Shown here: positions 1-64,000 of the stretch, one piece after another
How the letters are laid out: each line of letters opens with the position of its first letter
Position numbering within the stretch: the first letter of the stretch is position 1
DNA from: Octopus vulgaris
Lineage: Eukaryota
DNA: 64,000 bases
NCBI GenBank assembly: GCA_951406725.2
Contig: OX597842.1
Span: forward strand, 1,550,001 to 1,614,000
Reading direction: 5' to 3'
The notes under the pieces: model-generated
Seen by the model: the letters and a program-made list of their open reading frames with translations, nothing else
Told to the model about the DNA's origin: nothing
Database searches by the model: none
Program-made: the position numbers and the translations under genes

Positions 1-1075
1 TCATGATCATTGCTAAATAGCATCATTGCTGTCATCACCATCATCATCATTGTCATTGCTGTCATCATCATTACCAACATTTTCATTGTCATCATCATAC
101 TCATCTTCATTAGCCTCATCCTCATCATCATCATCATCACCAGCATTTTCATTGTCATCATCATCGTTGTCCTCATCACCAACATTTTCATCGTCATCAT
201 CATCATCACCATCATCTTCATTGTCATCATCATTATAATCATCATCATTCTCACTTTCATCATCATCTTCATTGTCATCATCATCATCATTCTCATTTTC
301 ATCATCTTTATTGTCATCATCATCATCATCACCAACATTTTTTTGTCATCATCATCATTTTCATTGTCGTCATCATCATCATCATCAACATTTTCATTGT
401 CATCATTCTCATCTTCATTAGACTCATCATCATCATCTTCATCATCATCATCATTTTCATTGTCATCATCTTCATTGTCATCATCATCATCATCGTCATC
501 AACATTTTCATTGTCATCATCATACTCATCTTCATTGTCATCATCATCATCATTCCCATCACCAACATTTTCATTGTCATCATCACTATCATCTTCATTA
601 TCCTCATTATGACAATCATTACCAAACTTTTTGTCATCATCATCATCACCATTGCTAATATCACCATCAACCTCATCACTATCATCATAATTGATGTCAT
701 CACCATCATCACTGTCATCATTGTCACCATCATCATCTTCATCATCACTATTGCTATCATCATTATTATCATTGCTAACATTGCCACAACTATATCTATC
801 ATTCCCACCAGCATCTTCACGATAACTGTCACCCCCATCATCATCTTAGTCATCATTACCATCATCATCAGCAATGTCGCTATTATGATCATCATCATCA
901 CTTCTAGTATCAACATCCTCATTACCATCTTCCATTTTGCTTTCATCATCATCTTTATCATCATCTCCGTTGTCATCACTAACATCACCATCATTATCAT
1001 TCTACCTGGTTTTTCATTAAAATTGTCACCTTAATCATCACCATCATCATAACTTCCATCAGTACCATCATCTTC
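1..1075. repeat. Degenerate (TCA/ATC)n trinucleotide microsatellite
   Basis: Continuous catcat/tcatca runs; explains the poly-I/S/M ORFs. Confidence 0.95.
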
Positions 1076-1119
1076 ATGGACATTCTAATAATTTTTACAT
1101 TCCCAGTTCCTTAATAATA

Positions 1120-1484
1120 ACAAGAGCACTCAGAGAGCCCAAATCTCCGCCAAGGCAACACCAACGTCCTCTCAACGATGAGCCAGAGATGGTTTTTAAA
1201 ATGAGAATATCTGAAATAAACTTGATTGCTCTCACAAACGAGGATACTACAAATGAACCTGATCGCTCTCAAAAATTAAATAAAAAAGAGAAAAAATAAT
1301 CTAGAATCCTTGTCCAATACCAGATCAATCCCAAAATCTAATCAGTCTGTGCCAGTAACAAGGCCAAACATCCCTGAAAATTTCATCTGAATCCATCCAA
1401 CGGTTCTTGAGATATCTTGTCCACAGACAAACAAACAAATGTAACTGAAAACAATACCTCTGCCTTCACTAAGGAAGAGGTAAT
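1120..1484 (+). mobile_element. Non-autonomous Helentron/DINE-like element (tentative)
   Basis: Ends in acagacaaacaaac...gaaaacaatacctctgcctt-cact-aaggaagaggtaat, a 3' stem-loop with one mismatch, in T/A-rich flanks. Confidence 0.4.
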
Positions 1485-1952
1485 TATAATAATAATAATA
1501 ATAATGGTTTCAAATTTTTCCATAAGGGCAGCCACTTTGGAGGAGGGAATGGGTCGATTGTATCCACCCCAGTGTTTCACTAGTACTTAATTTAAACAAT
1601 CCCCAAAAGGATGAAAGGCAAAGATGACTGGACAGCTTGACATGGAACTGGCCAGCCAGGGAGCTTCCCAGACTCTATTTAATTGAACAATGCAATCATT
1701 ACATCAATTTAAAAGCAGAGCAACCCTCAGCTGCATAAATACATAGGATTAAATTAAATTAAAACAGATGGACACATTAGTATAATTTTACCTAAAACCT
1801 CAAAGAAGGTAAGGAGATAGTCAAAGAACATGCTGTCTTCACTTCAGCTTAGAAGCTACAAAGGTATCAGGAAGAAAGACTTGTTACAGATTTGGCTTGC
1901 CTGTCCATTCATCCCCTATATAGCTCTCCATCCATCTATCTGTGCATCTACC

Positions 1953-1953
1953 A

Positions 1954-2007
<54 letters not shown>

Positions 2008-2135
2008 ATCTATCTATCTAGCCATCTATCTATATCAATCTATCTATCTACCCATCTATCTATCTATCTATCCTTCCATCCATCTATCCACTTGTCTGTC
2101 TACCTATAAACCAAACTGTCTATCTACTTATCTAT
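1953..2135. repeat. (TATC)n microsatellite
   Basis: Direct read. Confidence 0.95.
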
Positions 2136-3019
2136 CTCTCTCTTTTTTCTCTACAGCTTTTCATCCTCATTTAAGCATTTATTTATTTATTTAACCCCAG
2201 GTCTTCTCTCATACATTCTTCTTATAATAGTTATTATATTCCTCTTTGTATATCTATCTAACTATTTTTCTGTCTATCTGTCCGACCATCCATCTCTATC
2301 TATCTTTCTACCAAAAAACCTATCTCCCTCTCTCTATTTCTTCTTCTTTCTCTACAGGTTTTCCTCTTCATTTAAATATTTATTTATTTCTTTAACCTCG
2401 TGTCTTCTCTCGTACATTCTTCTTATAATAGTTATTATATTCCCACTTTTTCTCCATCCTCTCCATCATCAACCATCTTTATTTTTTTCCTTGTCTCTTA
2501 TTTACATTTCCACCTTTTTTTTCTTGCATCTGATGTCTTCTGCTTCCCCCACAAGATCCTCTCACTTCATCTCCTACACTTCCCTCAGACTCCAACCCTT
2601 TGCTCTCCCCCATCTCCTCTGCTGCACCTTCCCTCATTCCTCTCCTCTTCCTTCCCCTCCGTGCCCTGTCACGTCCCAAACCCCGCTTCCTTTCCGCGTC
2701 CCCCACTTGTTGTTCATGATATCTTTGCTTATGTAGTTATTTGTAAATATAAACTTTTACTGAGGACCTAAGGTGCCTCGGTGTGTAGTGTAACGCGCAC
2801 GCGTGTGTATGTGCGTACGCGTGTTCCTGCGTGCGAGTGGGTTCCTTTGCTGTTTTGTGATTTTGAGCATGCGTTTACGTGGGGAGGCACTACAAACGTA
2901 TGTATACAGTAGTGTGTTGGGGGGGAGTGTGTGGGTGTGCTGGAGGCTGAGAATGTATCTGTCTGCCATGATTGATGAGTTTTTGTACCACAGGAGGTTA
3001 ACATAACAGATAACTCGTG

Positions 3020-3082
3020 TTTACATACATACACGGATGTGTATGTGTGTGTGTATATACATACACACAAACACATGTATAT

Positions 3083-3113
<31 letters not shown>

Positions 3114-3248
3114 TACATACATACACATGTGTATATATACATATATACAGATACATATATATATACATACATACAGACACATATATATATGCATATACAT
3201 ACATACATACATGTGTACATATATATATATATATGCATACATGTACAA

Positions 3249-3299
<51 letters not shown>

Positions 3300-3419
3300 T
3301 ACATACATACATACATAAATACACATATATATACACATATACATGCACATATATAGACATACACACATACATTCACACACACAGGTATATATAAATGTGT
3401 GCGTATGGATGTATATATA

Positions 3420-3456
<37 letters not shown>

Positions 3457-3501
3457 ACATGCATGTGTTTGTGTAGAGATATATGCACAAGTGTATTTTC
3501 A

Positions 3502-3553
<52 letters not shown>

Positions 3554-3575
3554 CATGTTTGTGTATATGTGTGTG
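3020..3575. repeat. Compound (TA)n/(CA)n/(TG)n microsatellite
   Basis: Direct read. Confidence 0.95.
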
Positions 3576-3894
3576 CATTGATGTTTCATTGTTACTATCC
3601 TCCATAATGTTGTCGCTGCTGCTGTTACCATGGTGATTGTGGTGCTAGTGAACACATTATTGCTGTTTAACCCCAGGTATGACCTAGTACAACAGTACCT
3701 ATGATCAAAGTTGTCCCAAAAATGACCATCCTATGCCATCCCATCCAATCTCATTTTCCTTTTCAGGTAATGTATATCTCCATGTACAATATCCAGTGAG
3801 CTTACTTTAATTTACTAAGATTTGGCTGTTATTTCTAGCTGCTTTAAGGAACACACTGAATCTAGATGTCCTTATTTGGAGGAAATGTACATAT

Positions 3895-4075
3895 GTTGCA
3901 GGTGTGGCTGTATGGTAAGAAGCTTGCTTCCTGACCTCATGTTTCTGGGTTCAGTCCTACGACATGACACTTTGAGCAAGTGTTTTTTACTAGAGCTCCA
4001 AGCTGAACAAAGCCTTGTGAGTGGATTTGGTAGAAGGAAACTGAAAGAAGCCTGTTGTGTGCGTATGTGCATATA
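3895..4075 (+). mobile_element. SINE family A, 5' half (diverged)
   Basis: tRNA-like head gtggctgtatggtaagaagcttgc...gggttcagtcc, then gaaactgaaagaagcc. Confidence 0.8.
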
Positions 4076-4764
4076 TATAAAAACTTACTTGGAGGATAAG
4101 AAACGACGCGAGGCACTCAGTCATATAATAACAATTTAACAAATAAAACATATGCATACATACATACATATATGTACATATCTACATCTATATGTATATA
4201 TACATGCATATATATATATATATATATGAGTACAGGACACCACAAATAATCGTAGAACACAACGAGAAACGAAAACATAAAAACAAACTAGGAAACGGAC
4301 TTTTTTAACAACGAAAAAACAGAGTACAAGACAAACAATACAAGGAATATTCCCCTTCTTCATCTGCCCCTATTTCGATTCAATGCGTGTTTCGAAGGTA
4401 AGGGCAGAACACGATTATGCTGAAACAGTCCTTCCTGCAAAATGAATTAAATAAAATTCTTTTGCAGAGGGGTAAAAAAAAGGAAAGAAAAGTGAACAAG
4501 AACAAAATGTAAAACAAATACAAATAAAAATACAGTACAAATAAAGAATAAAAACAGGACAAGGAAACCAACAATAAGGGCTTTTTGTAAGCCTAGACAG
4601 TGGAAAAAAGTCTTGTTTTTAGCCCTGCTGTGTCTCTAGCAATCCTCCTCACCAGGCAAGCCTAGTTCAGGGTGCTGGCTTGGTCCCTAACAAGATGGTT
4701 ATTCAACAGGTCGTACTGGATTCCATGTTAATAGTAGCACTTATGATAAAAAAACGATAAACGT

Positions 4765-5312
4765 CACCCTTTTCAAGCCTAGCCAGGCTCGTGGGCCCGG
4801 TTTCCCGCATTTCTGTGGCATATGTGTTCCCCCTGGTTGGACAGGATGCCAGTCCATTGCAGTGTTACTCAAGAAACAGGAAGAGAGAGTGAGAAAAAGT
4901 TGGGGTGAAAGAGTACAACAGGGGTCACCACCACCCCCTACCGGAGCCTTGTGGAGCTTTTAGGAGTTTGCGCTCAATAAACACACACAACACCCGGTCT
5001 AGGAATCAAAACCAGGATCCTCCAACCGTGAGTCTGCTGCCCTAACCACTGAGCCATTGTGCCTCCACTGCACCCTTTTAAAGCCTAGCCAGGCTCACAG
5101 GCCCAGTTTCCCTGTTTCTATGGCATATTCCTCAGCTGGATGGGATGCCAGTCCATCACAGCGTTACTCATTTTTGCCAGCTGAGTGGACTGGAGCAACG
5201 TGAAATGAATTGTTTTGCTCAAGAACACAACGCGTCGCCCGGTCCAGGAATCGAAACCACAATCTTATGATCACAGTGCTGACACCCTAACCACTAAGCC
5301 ACGTGCCTCCAC
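4765..5312 (-). mobile_element. Two adjacent tRNA-derived SINE family C copies
   Basis: Reverse heads (ctaaccact...gtgcctccac) ending near 5068 and 5312; shared 3' end ccctttt(c/t)aagcctagccaggctc. Confidence 0.75.
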
Positions 5313-5439
5313 TTATGGGAGACCTTAAATGTGAACTGACATAAATATACACACACATACAGGAGACTGAGACTCCTGGTGGTTTGGTGTGCTTGAAAAG
5401 ACACGTTGCCCTTATATACAGGCTTGCTCCCTGCAACCC

Positions 5440-5990
5440 CCTCCAGCTGAGTATCCCTAATCTTGTGGGCTCATAGGTGCAGGTACGATGTAAAAAGCAC
5501 CCATACTGGTGGTTCATAAATGCACCCAACACACTCTGTGAAGTGGCTGGCGTTAGCGAGGGCATCCAGTTGTAGAAACCATGCCAAAGCAGACAGGGAA
5601 CCTGAACAGCCCTTCAGCTGCTCAGCTGTTCAACCTATGCCAACATGGAAAACGGATGTATAATGATGATGACATCATCATCATCATCATTTAGCGTCCG
5701 CTTTCCATGCTAACATGGGTTGGATGGTTCAACTGGGGCCTGGGAAACCAGGAGGCTACACCAGGCTCCAGTCTGATCTGGATGCCCTTCCTAACGCATA
5801 CCACTCCGTGAGTGTAGTGGGTGCATTTTACGTGCCACCAGCACAGGTGCCAGACGAGGCTGGCAAACGGCCACGATCAGATAGTGCTTTTTACATGCCA
5901 CCGGCATGGAGGCCCGTCGGGGTGGCGCTGGCAATGGCCACATTCGGATGGTTCGCTTACGTGCCACTGGCACTGGTATCACAGCTACAA
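5440..5990. mobile_element. Two tail-to-tail copies of repeat family D with (GAT)n tail (RTE-like 3' end)
   Basis: gggcatccagttgtagaaac...catggaaaacggatgtataatgatgatga is followed directly by its reverse complement catcatcat...ttagcgtccgctttccatgc. Confidence 0.65.
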
Positions 5991-6032
5991 TTCTCATTGA
6001 TGTTGATCGATTTCGAATATATATATATAAAA

Positions 6033-6407
6033 ACTGTACATTTAAACACATAAGAGGCATCAATCATAGGACTCCTTGCACGCTAGACAGAACAGTTAAA
6101 TTCCAAACCACTATTAGGGATAAAACTTCGCAGGGAATGAAAAATAAAAATGTTTATAAAATAAAATAAAAATCTTTACAAAATGTTTATAAAAAAAGTT
6201 TTTATTTTTCATTCCCTTGGAAGTTTTATCCCTAATAGTGCTTTGGAATTTAACTGTTCTGTCTAGCGTGCAAGAAGTCCTATGATAGATGCCTCTTATG
6301 TTTTTAAATGTACAGTATTTACATGAATAATAAATAATCTATTGACTAAATTTTTGCACGCTAGGCCACTGGTAATGGAAAGTTCTAATATTTCTGATTA
6401 CCCTCTG

Positions 6408-6412: not shown

Positions 6413-6455
<43 letters not shown>

Positions 6456-6460
6456 TGTAT

Positions 6461-6783
6461 ACTCTTTTACTTGTTTCAGTCATTTGACTGCGGCCATGCT
6501 GGAGCACCACCTTTAGTCGAGCAAATCGACCCCAGGACTTATTCTTTGTAAGCCCTGTACTTATTCTATCAGTCTCTTTTGCCGAACCGCTAAGTTACGG
6601 GAACATGAACACACCAGCATCGGTTGTCAAGCAATGTTGGGAGGCCAAACACACACACATATATATACATATATACGACAGGCTTCTTTCAGTTTCCGTC
6701 TACCAAATCCACTCACAAGGCATTGGTCGGCCTGGGGCTATAGCAGAAGACACTTGGCCAAGATGCCACACAGTGGGACTGAA
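6461..6783 (-). mobile_element. SINE family A (head truncated)
   Basis: actcttttacttgtttcagtcatttgactgcggccatgctggagcacc... consensus match. Confidence 0.9.
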
Positions 6784-10500: not shown

Positions 10501-10538
10501 AGATAAACAGACAGACCATTGAACAGAAAAACAAATAC

Positions 10539-10910
10539 TTTATTTACATTATTTACATATTGACAGAGTTTGTCCTCATTTTGTTTGTTGTTAACACGTT
10601 TCGGCTGATATACCTTCTACCCTTCATCAGATGTCTTGGGGAAATTTCAAACTTGGGTTCTCATTCCTAAGCTATTTTTCGATGTTGTTGTTATTATTAT
10701 TCTTCTTCTTATTATTATTATTATTATTCAGGTCACTGCCTGGAATCAAACTCGGAATCTTGGGGTTAGTAAGCCCACGCTCTTAACCACTACACCATAT
10801 GCCCATGGATGGTATATCAGCCGAAACGTTGTGTTAACAACAAACAAAAAGGACAAAATCTATCAAAATGTAAATAATGTAGATAATTCCTAATCTCTTA
10901 AATATAGAAC
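10539..10910 (-). mobile_element. SINE family E (tRNA head + (AAT)n + hammerhead-bearing tail), with an inverted tail fragment at 10811-10910
   Basis: Minus-strand head gggcatatggtgtagtggttaagagc...gagtttgattcc (A/B boxes); tail gacat-ctgatga...cagcc-gaaacgt; the same tail recurs on the plus strand. Confidence 0.8.
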
Positions 10911-13119: not shown

Positions 13120-13537
13120 TACTCTTTACTCTTTTACTCTTTTACTTGTTTCAGTCATTTGACTGCAGCCATGCTGGAGCACCACCTTTAATCGAGCAAC
13201 TCGACCCCGGGACTTATTCTTTGTAAGCCCAGTACTTATTCTATCAGTCTCTTTTGCCGAACCGCTAAGTGACTGGGACATAAACACACCAGCATCTGTT
13301 GTCAAGCAATGCTAGGGGGACAAACACAGACACACAAACATACACGCACACACACATATATATATATATATATACGACAGGCTTCTTTCAGTTTCCGTCT
13401 ACCAAATCCACTCACAAGGCTTTGGTCGGCCCGAGGCTATAGTAGAAGACAATTGCCCAAAGTGCCACGCAGAGGGACTGAACCCGGAGCCATGTGGTTG
13501 GTAAGCAAGCTACTTACCACACAGCCACTCCTATGCC
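13120..13537 (-). mobile_element. SINE family A, full length
   Basis: tRNA-like head, ccttgggcaa CORE-like block, internal (TA)/(CA) tract, (gagtaaaa)n tail. Confidence 0.92.
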
Positions 13538-18481: not shown

Positions 18482-18527
<46 letters not shown>

Positions 18528-18740
18528 GTGTATATGTTTGTGTGTCTGTGTTTGTCCCCATAACATTGCTTGACAACCGATGCTGGTGTGTTTACGCCCC
18601 CGTAACTTAGCAGTTCGGCAAAAGAGACTGATAGATTAAGTACTAGGCTCACAAAGAATAAGTCCTGGGCTCGATTTGCTTGACTAAAGGCAGTGCTCCA
18701 GCATGGTCGCAGTCAAATGACTGAAACAAGTAAAAGAGAA
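18335..18740 (+). mobile_element. SINE family A
   Basis: Consensus match. Confidence 0.9.
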
Positions 18741-32174: not shown

Positions 32175-32800
32175 CATTTATACATTACTAGCAGTATCGC
32201 CCGGCGTTGCTCGGGTTTGTAAGGGAAATAACTATATAAGCATTTTTAGAGATGTAAAGTATAAAAGCCATCTCAATATGGCTAACCACAAAGGGGGGGT
32301 GTTACTGTAGGTTTTACGTTCTGAGATTTAATAATATATTTTTAGAGAGTTACTTCCCTTATATAATAGCAAAAAAATGCATTAAAAATGGAAAAAAATG
32401 ATGGTAAATTTTTTTTTAAATCGTAGACTCATCGTAGACGCGCGCTAATACCCAGAAGGGCTCGATATGAATCACGACTATAAGATACCCGCTTTTGGTT
32501 ACACTGCACCGCAAAATGTGGGAGTAGTTAGGAATCTAAATCGTAGGGGACAGACACACAACTTCTCTTTTATATATAAAGATTTACAATGGGCAGATTG
32601 TTGTCCTCTCTCCAGCCTTCGTCAGGTTTTCTGGTGGAATTTTGAACCCAACCTTTTATTTGACTAATGGGGTACATTGTTCTCATTCCTTAAGTACGTT
32701 GCTGTTGTTATATACGGGCATATAACATAGTGGATAAGGGCGCGGATTACTAACCCTTGGATTCTATGTTCAATCCCAGGCAGGGACTTGAAAAATAATA
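32175..32800. mobile_element. Diverged SINE family E locus (minus-strand tail + plus-strand head), split by a Helitron
   Basis: ccagccttcgtcagg (= cCTGACGAaggctgg) at 32612; head gggcatataacatagtggataagggcgcgg at 32716. Confidence 0.65.
32188..32582 (-). mobile_element. Non-autonomous Helitron
   Basis: Reverse TC...hairpin...CTAG, inserted at A|T; same family as 36573-36969. Confidence 0.88.
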
Positions 32801-36256: not shown

Positions 36257-36572
36257 TCTTCGGTAAAATCTTTGCTCAAAACAAGTCACAGTTTTGAGCA
36301 ACGAAAATTTCGTCACAAATAAAATGTCGTCCATTTTTACGTTCCGTGTTCAAATTCTGCCCAAGTCGACTATGCATTTCATCCTTTCAAGGCCAATAAA
36401 ACAGCTACCAATCGAGGCCTAATTTTCTACAGGACGTTTCTAAAATCACAGCGATCCAAAAACTTTATTTCAATAAAAACATTTCACAATTATAAGTGAT
36501 ACACATTACGAACAAGAAGCAGAAAATGAGGGGGAAATAGACTTAATTTGAACCGAGTTTCCCCTGGGCACA

Positions 36573-36969
36573 TCTATATATATAAAAGTGAAGTTGTGTG
36601 TCTGTCTCCTACGATTTAGATTCCTCACTACTCCCACATTTTGCGGTGCAGTGTAACCAAAACCGGGTATCTTATAGTCGTGATTCATATCGAGCCCTTC
36701 TGGGTATTAGCGCGCGTCTACGATGAGTCTACGATTTTAAAAATAATTTACCATCATTTGTTTCCATTTTAATGCATTTTTTCGCTATTATATAAGGGAA
36801 GTAACTCTCTAAAAATGTCTACGATGAGTCAACGATTTAAAAAGAAATATACCATAATTTTTTTCCATTTTTAATGCATTTTTTTGCTACTTTTTGGCTA
36901 TAACTCTCTAAAAATGCTTATATAGTTATTTCCCTTACAAACCCGAGCAACGCCGGGCGATACTGCTAG
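36573..36969 (+). mobile_element. Non-autonomous Helitron, complete
   Basis: a|TCtatatatataaaagtg ... hairpin ... CTAG|t. Confidence 0.9.
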
Positions 36970-47699: not shown

Positions 47700-48265
47700 C
47701 TCATGTACCTTTCTGTTGAAGAGCATAGGCTCAAAATGTAAAAGACTTTCTCACCTTCCTGAGCGTTAAACTAATACACCTGTTTGTTGTTTACATACCC
47801 ATCTTTTTTCTTTTTTTTTTTTACTTGTTTCAGTCATTTGATTGCGGCCATGCTGGAGCACCGCCTTTAGTCGAGCAAATCGACCCCGGGACTTATTCTT
47901 TGTAAGCCCAGTACTTATTCTATCAGTCTCTTTTGCTGAACCGCTAAGTGACGGGGATGTAAACACACCAGCATCGGTTGTCAAGCAATGCTAGGGGGAC
48001 AAGCACAGACACACAAACACATACACACACACAGATATATATATATATATACATATATATGACAGGCTTCTTTCAGTTTCCGTCTACCAAATCCACTCAC
48101 AAGGCATTGGTCGGCCCGGGGCTATATTTAAGACACTTGCCCAAGGTGCCACGCAGTGGGACTGAACCCGGAACCATGTGGTTGGTTAGCAAGCTACTTA
48201 CCACACAGCCACTCCTTTACATACCCATCTTTGTCTATTGTTTTTTTGTAAATTCCAACTAATAT
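47700..48265 (+). mobile_element. PLE-like pLTR fragment, split by SINE A; same family as 57890-58050 (-)
   Basis: cttt-ctgttga-a-gagc(atag)gctc-aaaatgta-aaag is a decayed hammerhead. Confidence 0.55.
47807..48215 (-). mobile_element. SINE family A with 17-bp TSD
   Basis: tttacatacccatcttt at 47790 and 48216. Confidence 0.93.
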
Positions 48266-58157: not shown

Positions 58158-58276
58158 GTCAGGATAGCTAAGTAGTCTAGGGTGCCAGACTCAAGGTGCA
58201 TAAATGGTACCTTAACCAGAATATTGAGTATTCTGGTCCATTAATGTGGGTGTGGATTTGAATCCCACTTCTGACA
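58158..58276 (+). tRNA. tRNA-Leu(CAA) pseudogene retaining a 35-nt intron (58196-58230)
   Basis: gtcaggatagctaagtagtctagggtgccagactCAAg-[intron]-ttctggtc...gtggatttgaatcccacttctgaca follows the eukaryotic Leu-CAA pattern; A and B boxes mutated; T-run just downstream. Confidence 0.85.
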
Positions 58277-63210: not shown

Positions 63211-63450
63211 GGGCTCCCTTTCCATCAACATTATACCTTATGCCACAATGTGAAGATCCTTTTATATTAAAAAGGTGAAAGGAAATAAAATTACATGACA
63301 GAATCATAGTCTTGGCTATGACAAAAAAACCTATGACAAAAAAAAAAGACCTCAAAATTTTGGCTAGGAAATAAATTCTCTAAAACTAGTCCTAAAACTA
63401 AGGAAATGCTGCAATTTTGACTAAGAAACAGTTCAGAAAGAAACTGATAA

Positions 63451-63632
63451 TACAGTTCTGTATTTAAGAGATGAGGAATTATTTACATTATTTACATTTG
63501 ATGGATATTTGTCCTCATCTTGTTTGTTGTTAACACAATGTTTTGGCTGATATACCCTCCAGCCTTCTTCAGGTGCCTTGGGGAAATTTTGAACCTGGGT
63601 TCTCATTCCTAAGGTATTTTTCCATGTTATTA

Positions 63633-63698
<66 letters not shown>

Positions 63699-63935
63699 GT
63701 GTTCAGGTCACTGCTAGGAATTGAACTCTGAATCTTGGGGTTAGTAGCCCGTACTCTTAACCACTATGCCACAGGCATATGGTGTAGTGGTTAAGAGCAC
63801 AGGCTACTAACCCCAAGATTCCGAGTTCAATTCTAAGCAGTGACCTGAACAATAATAATAATAATAATAATAATAATAGCATTGAAAAATACCTTAGGAA
63901 CGAAAACCCGGGTTTGAAATTTCCCCAAGACACCT
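63451..63935 (-). mobile_element. SINE family E, complete (63451-63771), head-to-head with a 3'-truncated inverted copy (63774-63935)
   Basis: Reverse hammerhead at 63532-63577: ggcac-CTGAAGA-a-ggctg(gagggtatat)cagcc-aaaacatt-gtgtt; forward head ggcatatggtgtagtggttaagagc. Confidence 0.85.
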
Positions 63936-64000
63936 AATAGACAGTGATAATGTTTCTGTCTTCTTTCTTGTTACCTCTCTCTTCCCCCCTCTCTCTCTCT

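What the first reader, a model, noticed from the sequence alone, without database searches (positions are those of the whole stretch)
63451..63935. tRNA-headed SINE with a Penelope-type hammerhead ribozyme: candidate PLE-mobilised ribozyme SINE
Seen: a ~300-nt unit made of a Pol III tRNA-like head (tggtgtagtgg...gagttc(g/a)attc), an (AAT)n linker and a 3' half. The consensus of the 3' half over the three loci (10.5, 32.6, 63.5 kb) is GACAC-CTGA(T/A/C)GA-A-GGCTG(gagggtatat)CAGCC-GAAAC-GTT-GTGTT. Stems I and II pair and stem III is the palindrome AACGTT. In this copy the only core changes are two CpG>CpA decays. Every locus has one copy plus an inverted partial copy. Established: Penelope-like retroelements carry minimal type-I hammerheads with palindromic stem III in their pLTRs and often integrate with an inverted, tail-less pLTR. 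SINEs usually borrow the 3' end of a LINE partner; schistosome Sm-alpha is a precedent for a tRNA-like repeat with a hammerhead. Inference: this SINE borrowed a PLE pLTR and is mobilised by PLE RT/GIY-YIG. I do not know of this being described in cephalopods. No single copy here has a fully intact ribozyme.
Basis: partly seen in the sequence, partly recalled or inferred. Interest (0 to 1): 0.9.

Follow-up and report, generated by a model that had tools for sequence, protein, structure and literature searches.

The report
Penelope retroelement with tRNA-like promoter head
The apparent SINE is the terminal repeat of a protein-coding Penelope-like jumping gene that has picked up a tRNA-derived, promoter-like head, and its roughly 15,000 short copies carry genomic scars suggesting where its RNA started and where its ribozyme cut.

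Summary
In detail: tRNA-like head, (AAT)n, minimal type-I hammerhead, inverted partner copy. It is a family of roughly 15,000 insertions with Penelope (PLE) hallmarks: ~12-bp target duplications and a partner arm lacking the last ~30 nt. The interpretation needs revising. The unit is not a SINE that borrowed a tail. The whole unit, head included, is the pseudo-LTR of a decayed RT + GIY-YIG PLE: the head starts 29 nt after the stop codon, and the '3' half' is the first ~52 codons of the ORF. Short copies begin at one discrete point: 59 of 72 arms reaching the head's start stop at -7..+4. That is where RNA polymerase III would start from the A/B boxes. Most likely, Pol III-type transcripts from ORF-linked masters were reverse-transcribed from the PLE's internal start sites, giving SINE-like copies; no separate SINE lineage was detected. 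Small deletions and 5' ends also cluster at the predicted ribozyme cut, mostly in one arm per insertion (post hoc), hinting at cleavage in vivo. Pol III use and cleavage are inferred, not shown. Ten literature searches found no such PLE; Repbase/Dfam could not be checked.

The parts
63446..63771 (-). Arm 1 of the insertion: 5'-truncated pLTR copy (head from +8, AAT linker, 3' half with the full ~30-nt tail, running 5 nt on into the ORF continuation)
   Evidence: ORF continuation
63702..63771 (-). tRNA-like head of arm 1 (+8..+77), A box partly decayed, B box present
   Evidence: 90% to consensus; family head vs tRNA-Arg
63629..63701 (-). (AAT)n linker between head and 3' half; hosts nested insertions at other loci
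63451..63606 (-). First ~52 codons of the PLE ORF (ATG at 63606); the frame continues into RT and GIY-YIG in full-length copies
   Evidence: (L271 open frame)
63532..63577 (-). Minimal type-I hammerhead: 5-bp stem I, core, bulged A, 5-bp stem II, palindromic stem III with no loop; predicted cut between 63537 and 63536; G12 (63544) and G16.2 (63539) decayed in this copy
   Evidence: descriptor in PMC4209133
63453..63484 (-). PLE 'tail': the ~30 nt present on one arm and missing from the inverted partner (interval between two RT start sites)
   Evidence: (bimodal 3' ends); PMC11167929
63769..63938 (+). Arm 2 (inverted partner): starts at -4 of the head, AAT linker, 3' half to position 61; no ribozyme
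63773..63849 (+). tRNA-like head of arm 2; A box 63780-63790, B box 63825-63834
10540..10808 (-). Second locus, tail-less arm: head from -4, 3-nt deletion at the ribozyme cut site, stem II disrupted
10806..10910 (+). Second locus, full-tail arm (3' half positions 68-174); ~11-nt flank shared with 10521-10531 (target duplication)
32610..32792 (.). Third, older locus: minus arm 32648-32610 (82%) and plus-strand head 32714-32792 starting at -2 (78%)

Best explanation
The unit is the pseudo-LTR of an extinct or decayed EN+ Penelope-like retrotransposon (Penelope/Poseidon type by recalled RT motif; 2.65-kb monomer; one 835-codon ORF with RT and C-terminal GIY-YIG). Almost its whole non-coding spacer is a captured tRNA-Arg-like module plus (AAT)n.

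Mechanism:
(1) SHOWN: head, AAT linker, ATG, hammerhead and tail lie in that order and continue into the ORF.
(2) SHOWN: most cDNAs that reach the head end within -7..+4 of it, so the template RNA had a discrete 5' end, read as the G at -6.
(3) INFERRED: that end is an RNA polymerase III start set by the A/B boxes, ~13 nt upstream of the A box.
(4) SHOWN for anole Poseidon, INFERRED here: the PLE protein binds the 5' part of its ORF and starts reverse transcription internally at two sites ~30 nt apart, using both strands of a ~12-nt staggered cut in AT-rich DNA.
(5) INFERRED: because that site lies ~250-300 nt from the RNA's 5' end, the default product is a short head-to-head pair of pLTRs with a TSD, i.e. 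the 'SINE'. Long copies need tandem read-through RNA and are rare.
(6) INFERRED: short copies end at the tail and lack the ORF sequence 3' of it that the anole protein needs, so most are dead ends rather than new sources.
(7) TENTATIVE: the hammerhead cut some RNAs during integration, leaving 5' ends and small deletions at the scissile site.
For: ORF-head link: 17 of 19 RT-motif loci with an ORF end continue into the head, 29 nt after the stop. Open frame from ATG through hammerhead and tail into the ORF in real copy L271; majority frame of 835 codons. RT: Pfam RVT_1 E 4e-9. GIY-YIG: invariant Y/Y/R/E residues, Pfam GIY-YIG in 5 of 22 aligned members but not in the two genome pieces, top Foldseek hit I-TevI catalytic domain at prob 0.97 but E 0.22.

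PLE insertion signature: 3' ends bimodal (65 arms at 135-159, 70 at 170-178, 10 elsewhere); 35 of 53 pairs share a >=9-nt flank vs 0.7% of 3,000 shuffled pairings. 52 of 70 loci have an inverted partner, 47 tail-less and 1 full-tailed.

Discrete 5' end: 59 of 72 arms reaching +4 stop at -7..+4 (mixed selection of loci); 25 of 40 in the tail-end-only sample. Genome-wide exact k-mers: 850 just upstream of the head, 6,097 in it, 6,764 at the tail end, 90 just past the tail. L260, L263 and L266 show template jumps from a -5..-7 end onto ORF RNA. L238/L275 (one locus) starts at -2 and runs into the ORF.

tRNA origin: 51 of 75 identities to the genome's tRNA-Arg(TCG), z 8.2, best of 28 distinct tRNA genes covering few isotypes. 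No run of >=4 T in the 2,654-nt sense strand (P 0.02 by synonymous shuffle, 0.07 by Markov model).

No SINE-specific lineage: 44 ORF-linked vs 52 head-start arms share all polymorphisms tested; divergence 5.3% vs 4.3%, P 0.07.

Cut-site scars: up to 31 of ~250 arms deleted at the site vs 0-11 in other 10-nt bins. 26 of 105 tail-less vs 14 of 133 full arms (P 0.005); discordant in 17 of 22 affected pairs although paired arms share other variants. 5' ends at 93-100: 16 of 209 vs 7.1 expected.
Against: No direct evidence of Pol III transcription. The raw RNA-seq laid was unstranded, 78% of reads ran on into unlike sequence, and no start site appeared. The T-run test is weak: one Neptune-like ORF also had only 1 run in 1,002 nt, while two others had 8 and 9.

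The -7..+5 region is a near-palindrome, so some junctions are snap-backs and their exact position is ambiguous. Of five upstream pLTRs with a full head, three run on into a previous ORF end, so read-through RNA also existed. How an uncapped Pol III RNA would be translated is unexplained.

The lineage test has low power (44 vs 52 arms), and short copies are slightly less diverged, which is what secondary sources would give. One CpG site differed at P 0.04 and t61 at P 0.053, uncorrected.

The cut-site tests were made after seeing the cluster. Two of the 16 starts are doubtful. 5 pairs share a deletion in both arms. Slippage or stalling in a GT-rich structured stretch is a rival.

5 of 30 heads lack a linked 3' half. 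The Poseidon label rests on a recalled motif and unnamed homologs, not on a tree.
Confidence: 0.6

Rival explanations
1. True self-propagating SINE. Short copies with intact A/B boxes are transcribed by Pol III into their flanks and re-mobilised in trans by the PLE protein, so the family amplified partly on its own. The head may have joined the PLE by a template jump from such a SINE.
For: About 7-fold excess of head k-mers over ORF-end k-mers. Short copies slightly less diverged than ORF-linked ones. Template jumps from a head start onto ORF RNA are seen. Non-autonomous PLE derivatives are known (MRC1, PMC8557442 passage; retrozymes).
Against: No diagnostic non-CpG substitution separates short from ORF-linked arms. 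Short copies end at the tail and lack the downstream ORF stretch the anole protein required (first 172 nt of ORF; tail end here is +154). The excess is expected anyway from internal RT initiation.
Confidence: 0.2
2. Passive tRNA insert. The PLE is a Pol II read-through transcript with an old tRNA/SINE insertion in its spacer. The 5'-end pile-up comes from RNA processing (RNase P-like cut) or from RT snap-back at the near-palindrome around -7..+5, not from a promoter.
For: Near-palindrome and many snap-back junctions. +1 and -7 are the two commonest single starts (11 arms each). Tandem read-through copies exist (L225, L236, L248). The D. virilis Penelope promoter is TATA-less and LINE-like (abstract).
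Against: Many junctions are asymmetric (head start joined to the partner's mid-tail or to unique flank) and keep 3-5 nt of the upstream PLE sequence, which a cut at +1 would remove. The head does not fold as a cloverleaf and ARAGORN ignores it, while the box motifs persist. A conservation advantage of the boxes was inconclusive.
Confidence: 0.18
3. Ordinary LINE-mobilised tRNA SINE whose hammerhead resemblance is incidental.
For: tRNA-like head and a microsatellite, as in many SINEs.
Against: No A-rich or repeat 3' tail; inverted tail-less partner arms and ~12-nt TSDs; identity with the terminus of an RT + GIY-YIG element.
Confidence: 0.01

Closest known systems
Poseidon of Anolis carolinensis (PAc; Frangieh et al. 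2024, PMC11167929, parts 1-2 of 4 read)
   Same: One ORF with RT and C-terminal GIY-YIG; hammerhead overlapping the ORF start; tandem pLTR-ORF-pLTR; two internal RT start sites giving a 30-40-nt tail; AT-rich targets.
   Different: No tRNA-like module is mentioned for PAc in the parts read. Here the hammerhead lies wholly inside the ORF (core at +35, cut at +70). That paper found no RNA-seq reads ending at the cut, whereas copies here carry scars at it.
[quoted passage not shown]
   Same: Short stem I, bulged base between 9 and 10.1, G10.1-C11.1, palindromic 15.2-16.2, dimer-dependent; mostly solo copies, some in opposite-strand pairs 100-700 bp apart.
   Different: Stem II is 5 bp rather than 7-8. 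No Pol III head or defined 5' end is described in the parts read.
Schistosome Sm-alpha / Sj-alpha (passages of PMC2770079 and PMC6765202)
   Same: tRNA-related repeat with a type-I hammerhead, reported as apparently Pol III-transcribed.
   Different: Those are non-coding, often tandem, and released by the ribozyme. Here the module is the terminus of a coding PLE, copies are inverted pairs, and the hammerhead is minimal.
Animal non-LTR retrozymes (PMC7229834 passages; bioRxiv 10.64898/2026.07.22.740005, parts 1-3 of 5)
   Same: Short non-coding hammerhead units related to PLE pLTRs and presumed PLE-mobilised.
   Different: Retrozymes are head-to-tail tandem arrays giving circular RNAs. These copies are head-to-head pairs or solos with a tRNA-like start.
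Octopus tRNA SINEs OR1/OR2/OK (Ohshima and Okada 1994; not held, seen only as cited in PMC4758252 and PMC4824008)
   Same: tRNA-derived heads in an octopus (the tRNA-Arg origin of OR1/OR2 is recalled, not from a call).
   Different: The citing papers class OR1 or OR2 as CORE-SINEs; no such body lies between head and ORF start here. Their sequences could not be compared, so identity with OK is untested.

Membership tests
EN+ Penelope-like element | Single ORF with RT | tested here: met
   Pfam RVT_1 E 4e-9 on real copy L165; majority frame of 835 codons; all sampled copies are broken
EN+ Penelope-like element | C-terminal GIY-YIG endonuclease | tested here: met
   Invariant Y/Y/R/E and CCHH residues; Pfam GIY-YIG in 5 of 22 aligned members, not in the genome pieces themselves; top fold hit I-TevI, prob 0.97, E 0.22
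EN+ Penelope-like element | pLTR from tandem or partial-tandem arrangement | tested here: met
   L151, L225, L236, L248
EN+ Penelope-like element | Inverted 5'-truncated partner and 30-40-nt tail on one end | tested here: met
   52 of 70 loci inverted, 47 tail-less; bimodal 3' ends
EN+ Penelope-like element | Hammerhead motif in the pLTR | tested here: met
   5,719 vs 0 control; matches the min-HHR description; Rfam models do not score it
Penelope/Poseidon clade | RT phylogeny with named Poseidon members | not tested
   No named references held; motif recalled; 29% identical to the genome's Neptune-like ORF (that label is also recalled); homologs unnamed
Hammerhead ribozyme (type I, minimal) | Self-cleavage after the triplet, as a dimer or protein-assisted | not testable with these tools
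   Indirect only: deletions and 5' ends cluster at the site
tRNA-derived SINE | tRNA-related head with A and B boxes | tested here: met
   51 of 75 identities to tRNA-Arg(TCG), collinear; not called by Rfam or ARAGORN
tRNA-derived SINE | 5' ends at the Pol III start | tested here: met
   59 of 72 arms stop at -7..+4; k-mer step 850 to 6,097
tRNA-derived SINE | Transcription by Pol III | tested here: inconclusive
   RNA-seq uninformative; no T4 run in sense strand, P 0.02-0.07
tRNA-derived SINE | Non-coding element distinct from its autonomous partner, sharing only the 3' end | tested here: not met
   The whole unit, head included, is part of the coding element; the 3' half is ORF
tRNA-derived SINE | Own lineage of source copies | tested here: inconclusive
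   No diagnostic substitutions in 52 vs 44 arms, low power
Non-LTR retrozyme | Head-to-tail tandem arrays of hammerhead units | tested here: not met
   Inverted pairs or solos dominate; direct repeats are occasional

The most novel reading that the evidence does not exclude
An autonomous, protein-coding Penelope-like retrotransposon whose own promoter is a captured tRNA-type (Pol III) module and whose 2.6-kb sense strand avoids Pol III terminators. One transcript would serve as mRNA and, through internal RT initiation, as a SINE generator. Its genomic copies would also record in vivo cleavage by the PLE hammerhead during integration, preferentially before the second arm is made.
Probability: 0.35. 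Interest if true: 0.85.

Novelty: new variant of a known kind. Interest (0 to 1): 0.66.

Why it matters
It shows how a SINE-like family can arise without a separate SINE: a tRNA-type promoter placed just upstream of a PLE's internal reverse-transcription start makes 'SINEs' the element's default product. Annotation pipelines would probably file these copies as SINEs. If Pol III drives the ORF-bearing RNA, it is an unusual case of a coding retroelement on a tRNA promoter. About 15,000 insertions also give a large natural record for two open points of PLE biology: how the inverted, tail-less second arm is made, and whether the minimal hammerhead cuts in vivo (the anole study saw no RNA ends at the cut). 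Both are testable by genome-wide junction mapping and the existing in vitro PLE assay.

Tried and rejected
Rfam scans: no hammerhead or tRNA hit on the element. ARAGORN: nothing in the window.

Pfam family PF26215 is not in the library. The Pfam GIY-YIG search scored 150 of 6,136 candidates. The 40 loci fetched (39 distinct) were nearly all Neptune-like PLEs with other hammerheads, plus one apparent host gene (L065); none shared the 3' end. They are rejected as partners. The partner came from an RT-motif pattern.

One search used a poorly determined consensus k-mer and found 1 match; superseded. The T-run shuffle was in the wrong frame; superseded. The hazard test used 87 at risk instead of 72, so its P values are not used. 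The pair count was misregistered and is meaningless; no covariation test was achieved within this young family. Unconstrained folding gives stems I and II but an alternative core, as expected for a loop-less stem III. Conservation of A/B boxes and core versus the rest is confounded by how loci were picked.

Sequencing-run search: no RNA holder listed on record. The lay of one raw RNA run and two contig sets mirrored the genomic copy profile, unstranded, with no start or end sites; not used as evidence of expression.

Ohshima and Okada 1994 and Lunse et al. 2017 were not held. Repbase, Dfam and the repeat library of PMC13282606 could not be searched; its one supplementary text file does not mention hammerheads or Poseidon. 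bioRxiv supplements were not seen. Earlier-findings look-ups by sequence and place were empty.

Rejected ideas: that (AAT)n is the target site (3' flanks are unique DNA with TSDs); that head + AAT is a free-standing SINE family (25 of 30 linked; of the 5 others one keeps a 17-nt remnant and two are a duplicated pair).

Full report
SETTING. The window is G000:C29:1550001-1614000 in a 2.8-Gb genome of 227 contigs, about 30 of them large. Size and repeat content are consistent with an octopus; this is inference, not verified. All counts below come from the window and 308 fetched loci, or from whole-genome exact-pattern counts.

1. OBSERVATION. The three loci exist as described. At 63.5 kb a minus-strand arm (63771->63446) faces a plus-strand arm (63769-63938). 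The hammerhead at 63577->63532 has two CpG decays in the core, including the catalytic G12. No window copy passes a strict descriptor. Genome-wide the core pattern has 5,719 exact matches against 0 for the control. It fits the published minimal PLE hammerhead: short stem I, bulged base before stem II, G10.1-C11.1, palindromic loop-less stem III (PMC4209133, parts 1-2 of 4). Rfam models do not score it. The head aligns collinearly with the genome's own tRNA-Arg(TCG), 51 of 75 bases, best of 28 distinct tRNA genes that cover only a few isotypes. It keeps A- and B-box motifs but not a cloverleaf. From 6,764 exact tail-end 21-mers and a 42-of-96 exact-match rate in loci not chosen by it, there are about 15,000 full-tail arms.

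2. INSERTION SIGNATURE. In 99 loci, 3' ends fall in two groups: 65 arms at positions 135-159 and 70 at 170-178 of the 178-nt 3' half, 10 elsewhere. In 70 position-ordered loci on C1, 52 have an inverted head-to-head partner (47 tail-less, 1 full-tailed) and 18 are solo. Of 53 pairs, 35 share a flank of 9-14 nt, against 0.7% of 3,000 shuffled pairings. Each pair is therefore one insertion with a ~12-nt target duplication. This is the inverted copy and 30-40-nt tail described for PLEs (PMC8557442 passages). The anole study traced the tail to two internal RT start sites (PMC11167929, parts 1-2 of 4).

3. THE PARTNER IS THE ELEMENT ITSELF. PLEs found through Pfam GIY-YIG (40 loci) have other ends and other hammerheads. 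A pattern for a recalled Penelope/Poseidon RT motif found 121 places, 0 control. Of 30 fetched, 19 retain the ORF end, and 17 of those run on into the same tRNA-like head 29 nt after the stop. At the other end, copies holding the ORF start are preceded directly by the 3' half. In real copy L271 one open frame runs from an ATG 22 nt after the AAT linker, through hammerhead and tail, into the ORF. The majority monomer is 2,654 nt with one 835-codon frame. RT is confirmed by Pfam. GIY-YIG is supported by conserved residues, by Pfam hits in 5 of 22 aligned members, and by a weak top fold match to I-TevI. All sampled copies are broken and about 5% diverged outside CpG. So the 'SINE' is the pseudo-LTR, and the tRNA module is nearly all of the element's non-coding DNA.

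4. A DISCRETE RNA 5' END. If short copies were random truncations, their starts would thin out smoothly across the head boundary. They do not. Among 100 distinct arms with head positions 12-41 intact (139 loci of mixed selection), 28 start at +6 or later, 59 at -7..+4 and 13 further upstream. About six of the late starts are indel misregistrations. In the tail-end-selected sample alone, 25 of 40 arms at risk stop in that window. Whole-genome k-mers agree: 850 at -32..-13 against 6,097 inside the head (20 vs 18 nt), and only 90 just past the tail. All three window loci have an arm starting at -2 to -4. Many arms keep 3-5 nt of upstream PLE sequence joined to unrelated DNA, which argues against a cut at +1. 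The -7 class is best read as snap-back from an end at the G at -6, 13 nt upstream of the A box, a plausible Pol III start (inference from general tRNA-gene layout, recalled). The near-palindrome there makes single junctions ambiguous. The sense strand has no run of four T in 2,654 nt (33 A-runs); this is only weakly significant (P 0.02 and 0.07), and one of three Neptune-like control ORFs is also T-run-poor. RNA-seq did not help.

5. SINE OR DEAD-END PRODUCT? The RT start sites lie 120-155 nt into the ORF, so an RNA starting at the head always offers a start site near its 5' end, and copying from it yields exactly the short unit. Long copies need tandem read-through RNA. Such RNA existed (L225, L236, L248), as did RNA starting at the head and continuing into the ORF (L238 = L275). 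The anole protein needed the first 172 nt of the ORF, beyond the +154 tail end here, so tail-terminated copies may be unable to serve as sources. Consistent with this, 44 ORF-linked and 52 head-start arms share every polymorphism tested and have similar divergence (5.3% vs 4.3%, P 0.07). The test is low in power and the trend leans slightly towards younger short copies, so a self-propagating phase stays possible (0.2).

6. SCARS AT THE RIBOZYME CUT (post hoc). In 325 arms from loci not chosen by the hammerhead pattern, up to 31 of about 250 lose bases at the predicted cut, against 0-11 in other 10-nt bins; 46 of 249 have a deletion in positions 86-99, mostly one 3-nt form plus 2- and 5-nt forms. 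The deletion is commoner in tail-less arms (26 of 105) than full arms (14 of 133; P 0.005). In 65 pairs it is in the tail-less arm only 14 times, the full arm only 3, both 5, neither 43; one locus is counted twice. Paired arms otherwise share variants (46 of 674 variant sites vs 2.0% shuffled). It therefore mostly arises during integration rather than by inheritance. 5' ends also cluster just after the cut (16 of 209 vs 7.1 expected, P 0.002; two doubtful). The simplest reading is that RT met, and sometimes jumped, a cut RNA. Slippage or stalling in this GT-rich structure is not excluded.

7. COMPARISON AND NOVELTY. As a whole it is a PLE by every structural feature tested; the Poseidon clade label is untested. 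It works like a tRNA SINE at its 5' end but fails SINE membership because it is not distinct from the coding element. Precedents for parts: minimal hammerheads and solo or inverted pLTRs; Sm-alpha (tRNA-related, hammerhead, apparently Pol III; passages); retrozymes as PLE derivatives; a TATA-less LINE-like promoter in D. virilis Penelope (abstract). Ten searches surfaced no PLE with a tRNA-derived pLTR and no cephalopod case; most hits were judged from listings only. The 2026 O. vulgaris repeat paper does not mention ribozymes (passages and one supplement). Repbase, Dfam and the 1994 octopus SINE paper could not be seen, so the family may already be catalogued under some name. Unchecked notes from this scan report tRNA-bearing, non-coding PLE-type repeats in other genomes, which suggests the pairing recurs.

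VERDICT. Real; new variant of a known kind; interest 0.66. Component odds: PLE origin of the unit 0.97; discrete RNA 5' end 0.9; Pol III as its cause 0.7; short copies mostly master-derived 0.65; cleavage scars real 0.55.

Noticed in passing
window 58158-58276 (+): Degenerate intron-containing tRNA gene (Rfam tRNA 31.8 bits, over the gathering score; Leu-CAA-like by eye); ARAGORN does not call it.
   Followed up: no
window 6448-6697, 13123-13372, 47802-48051 and about 8 more; inverted copies e.g. 18494-18740: An abundant ~250-nt dispersed repeat in both orientations, probably a conventional SINE (family D20).
   Followed up: no
window 32385-32583 and 36572-36770: 199-nt arms, 96% complementary, 4 kb apart; part of a repeat starting near 32190 that also sits in the AAT linker of L100; Helitron-like by recall.
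   Followed up: no
L054, L059, L087 and others: A young Neptune-like PLE family with many intact 781-aa ORFs and a hammerhead with the U3-A8 core covariation; other Neptune-like families carry different hammerheads (L051, L079).
   Followed up: partly
L041-L045: At least two further short min-hammerhead families with 4-5-bp stem II, without a nearby ORF in the 8 kb fetched.
   Followed up: partly
L002, L010, L018, L109, L222, L239: Other repeats, several ending in (AAT)n, are nested in the AAT linker and separate head from 3' half.
   Followed up: partly
L227, L231, L237, L242, L260, L263, L266, L277: Frequent template jumps: a short pLTR piece joined directly to a point 40-900 nt inside the ORF, giving internally deleted direct repeats.
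   Followed up: partly
3' half positions 108-160 (window 63469-63521, minus strand): A 9-bp hairpin encloses the first RT start region and a 9-nt tandem duplication polymorphism; a candidate for the protein-binding stem-loop. 5' ends also cluster near position 131.
   Followed up: partly
3' half position 61 (window 63568): The inherited T/A polymorphism in the ribozyme core falls on the free N7 position and is concordant between arms of one insertion.
   Followed up: partly
The stretch is held by runs of five coded organisms (A-E) and nearly absent from two others in one shared study, so the family predates the split of several related species.
   Followed up: no
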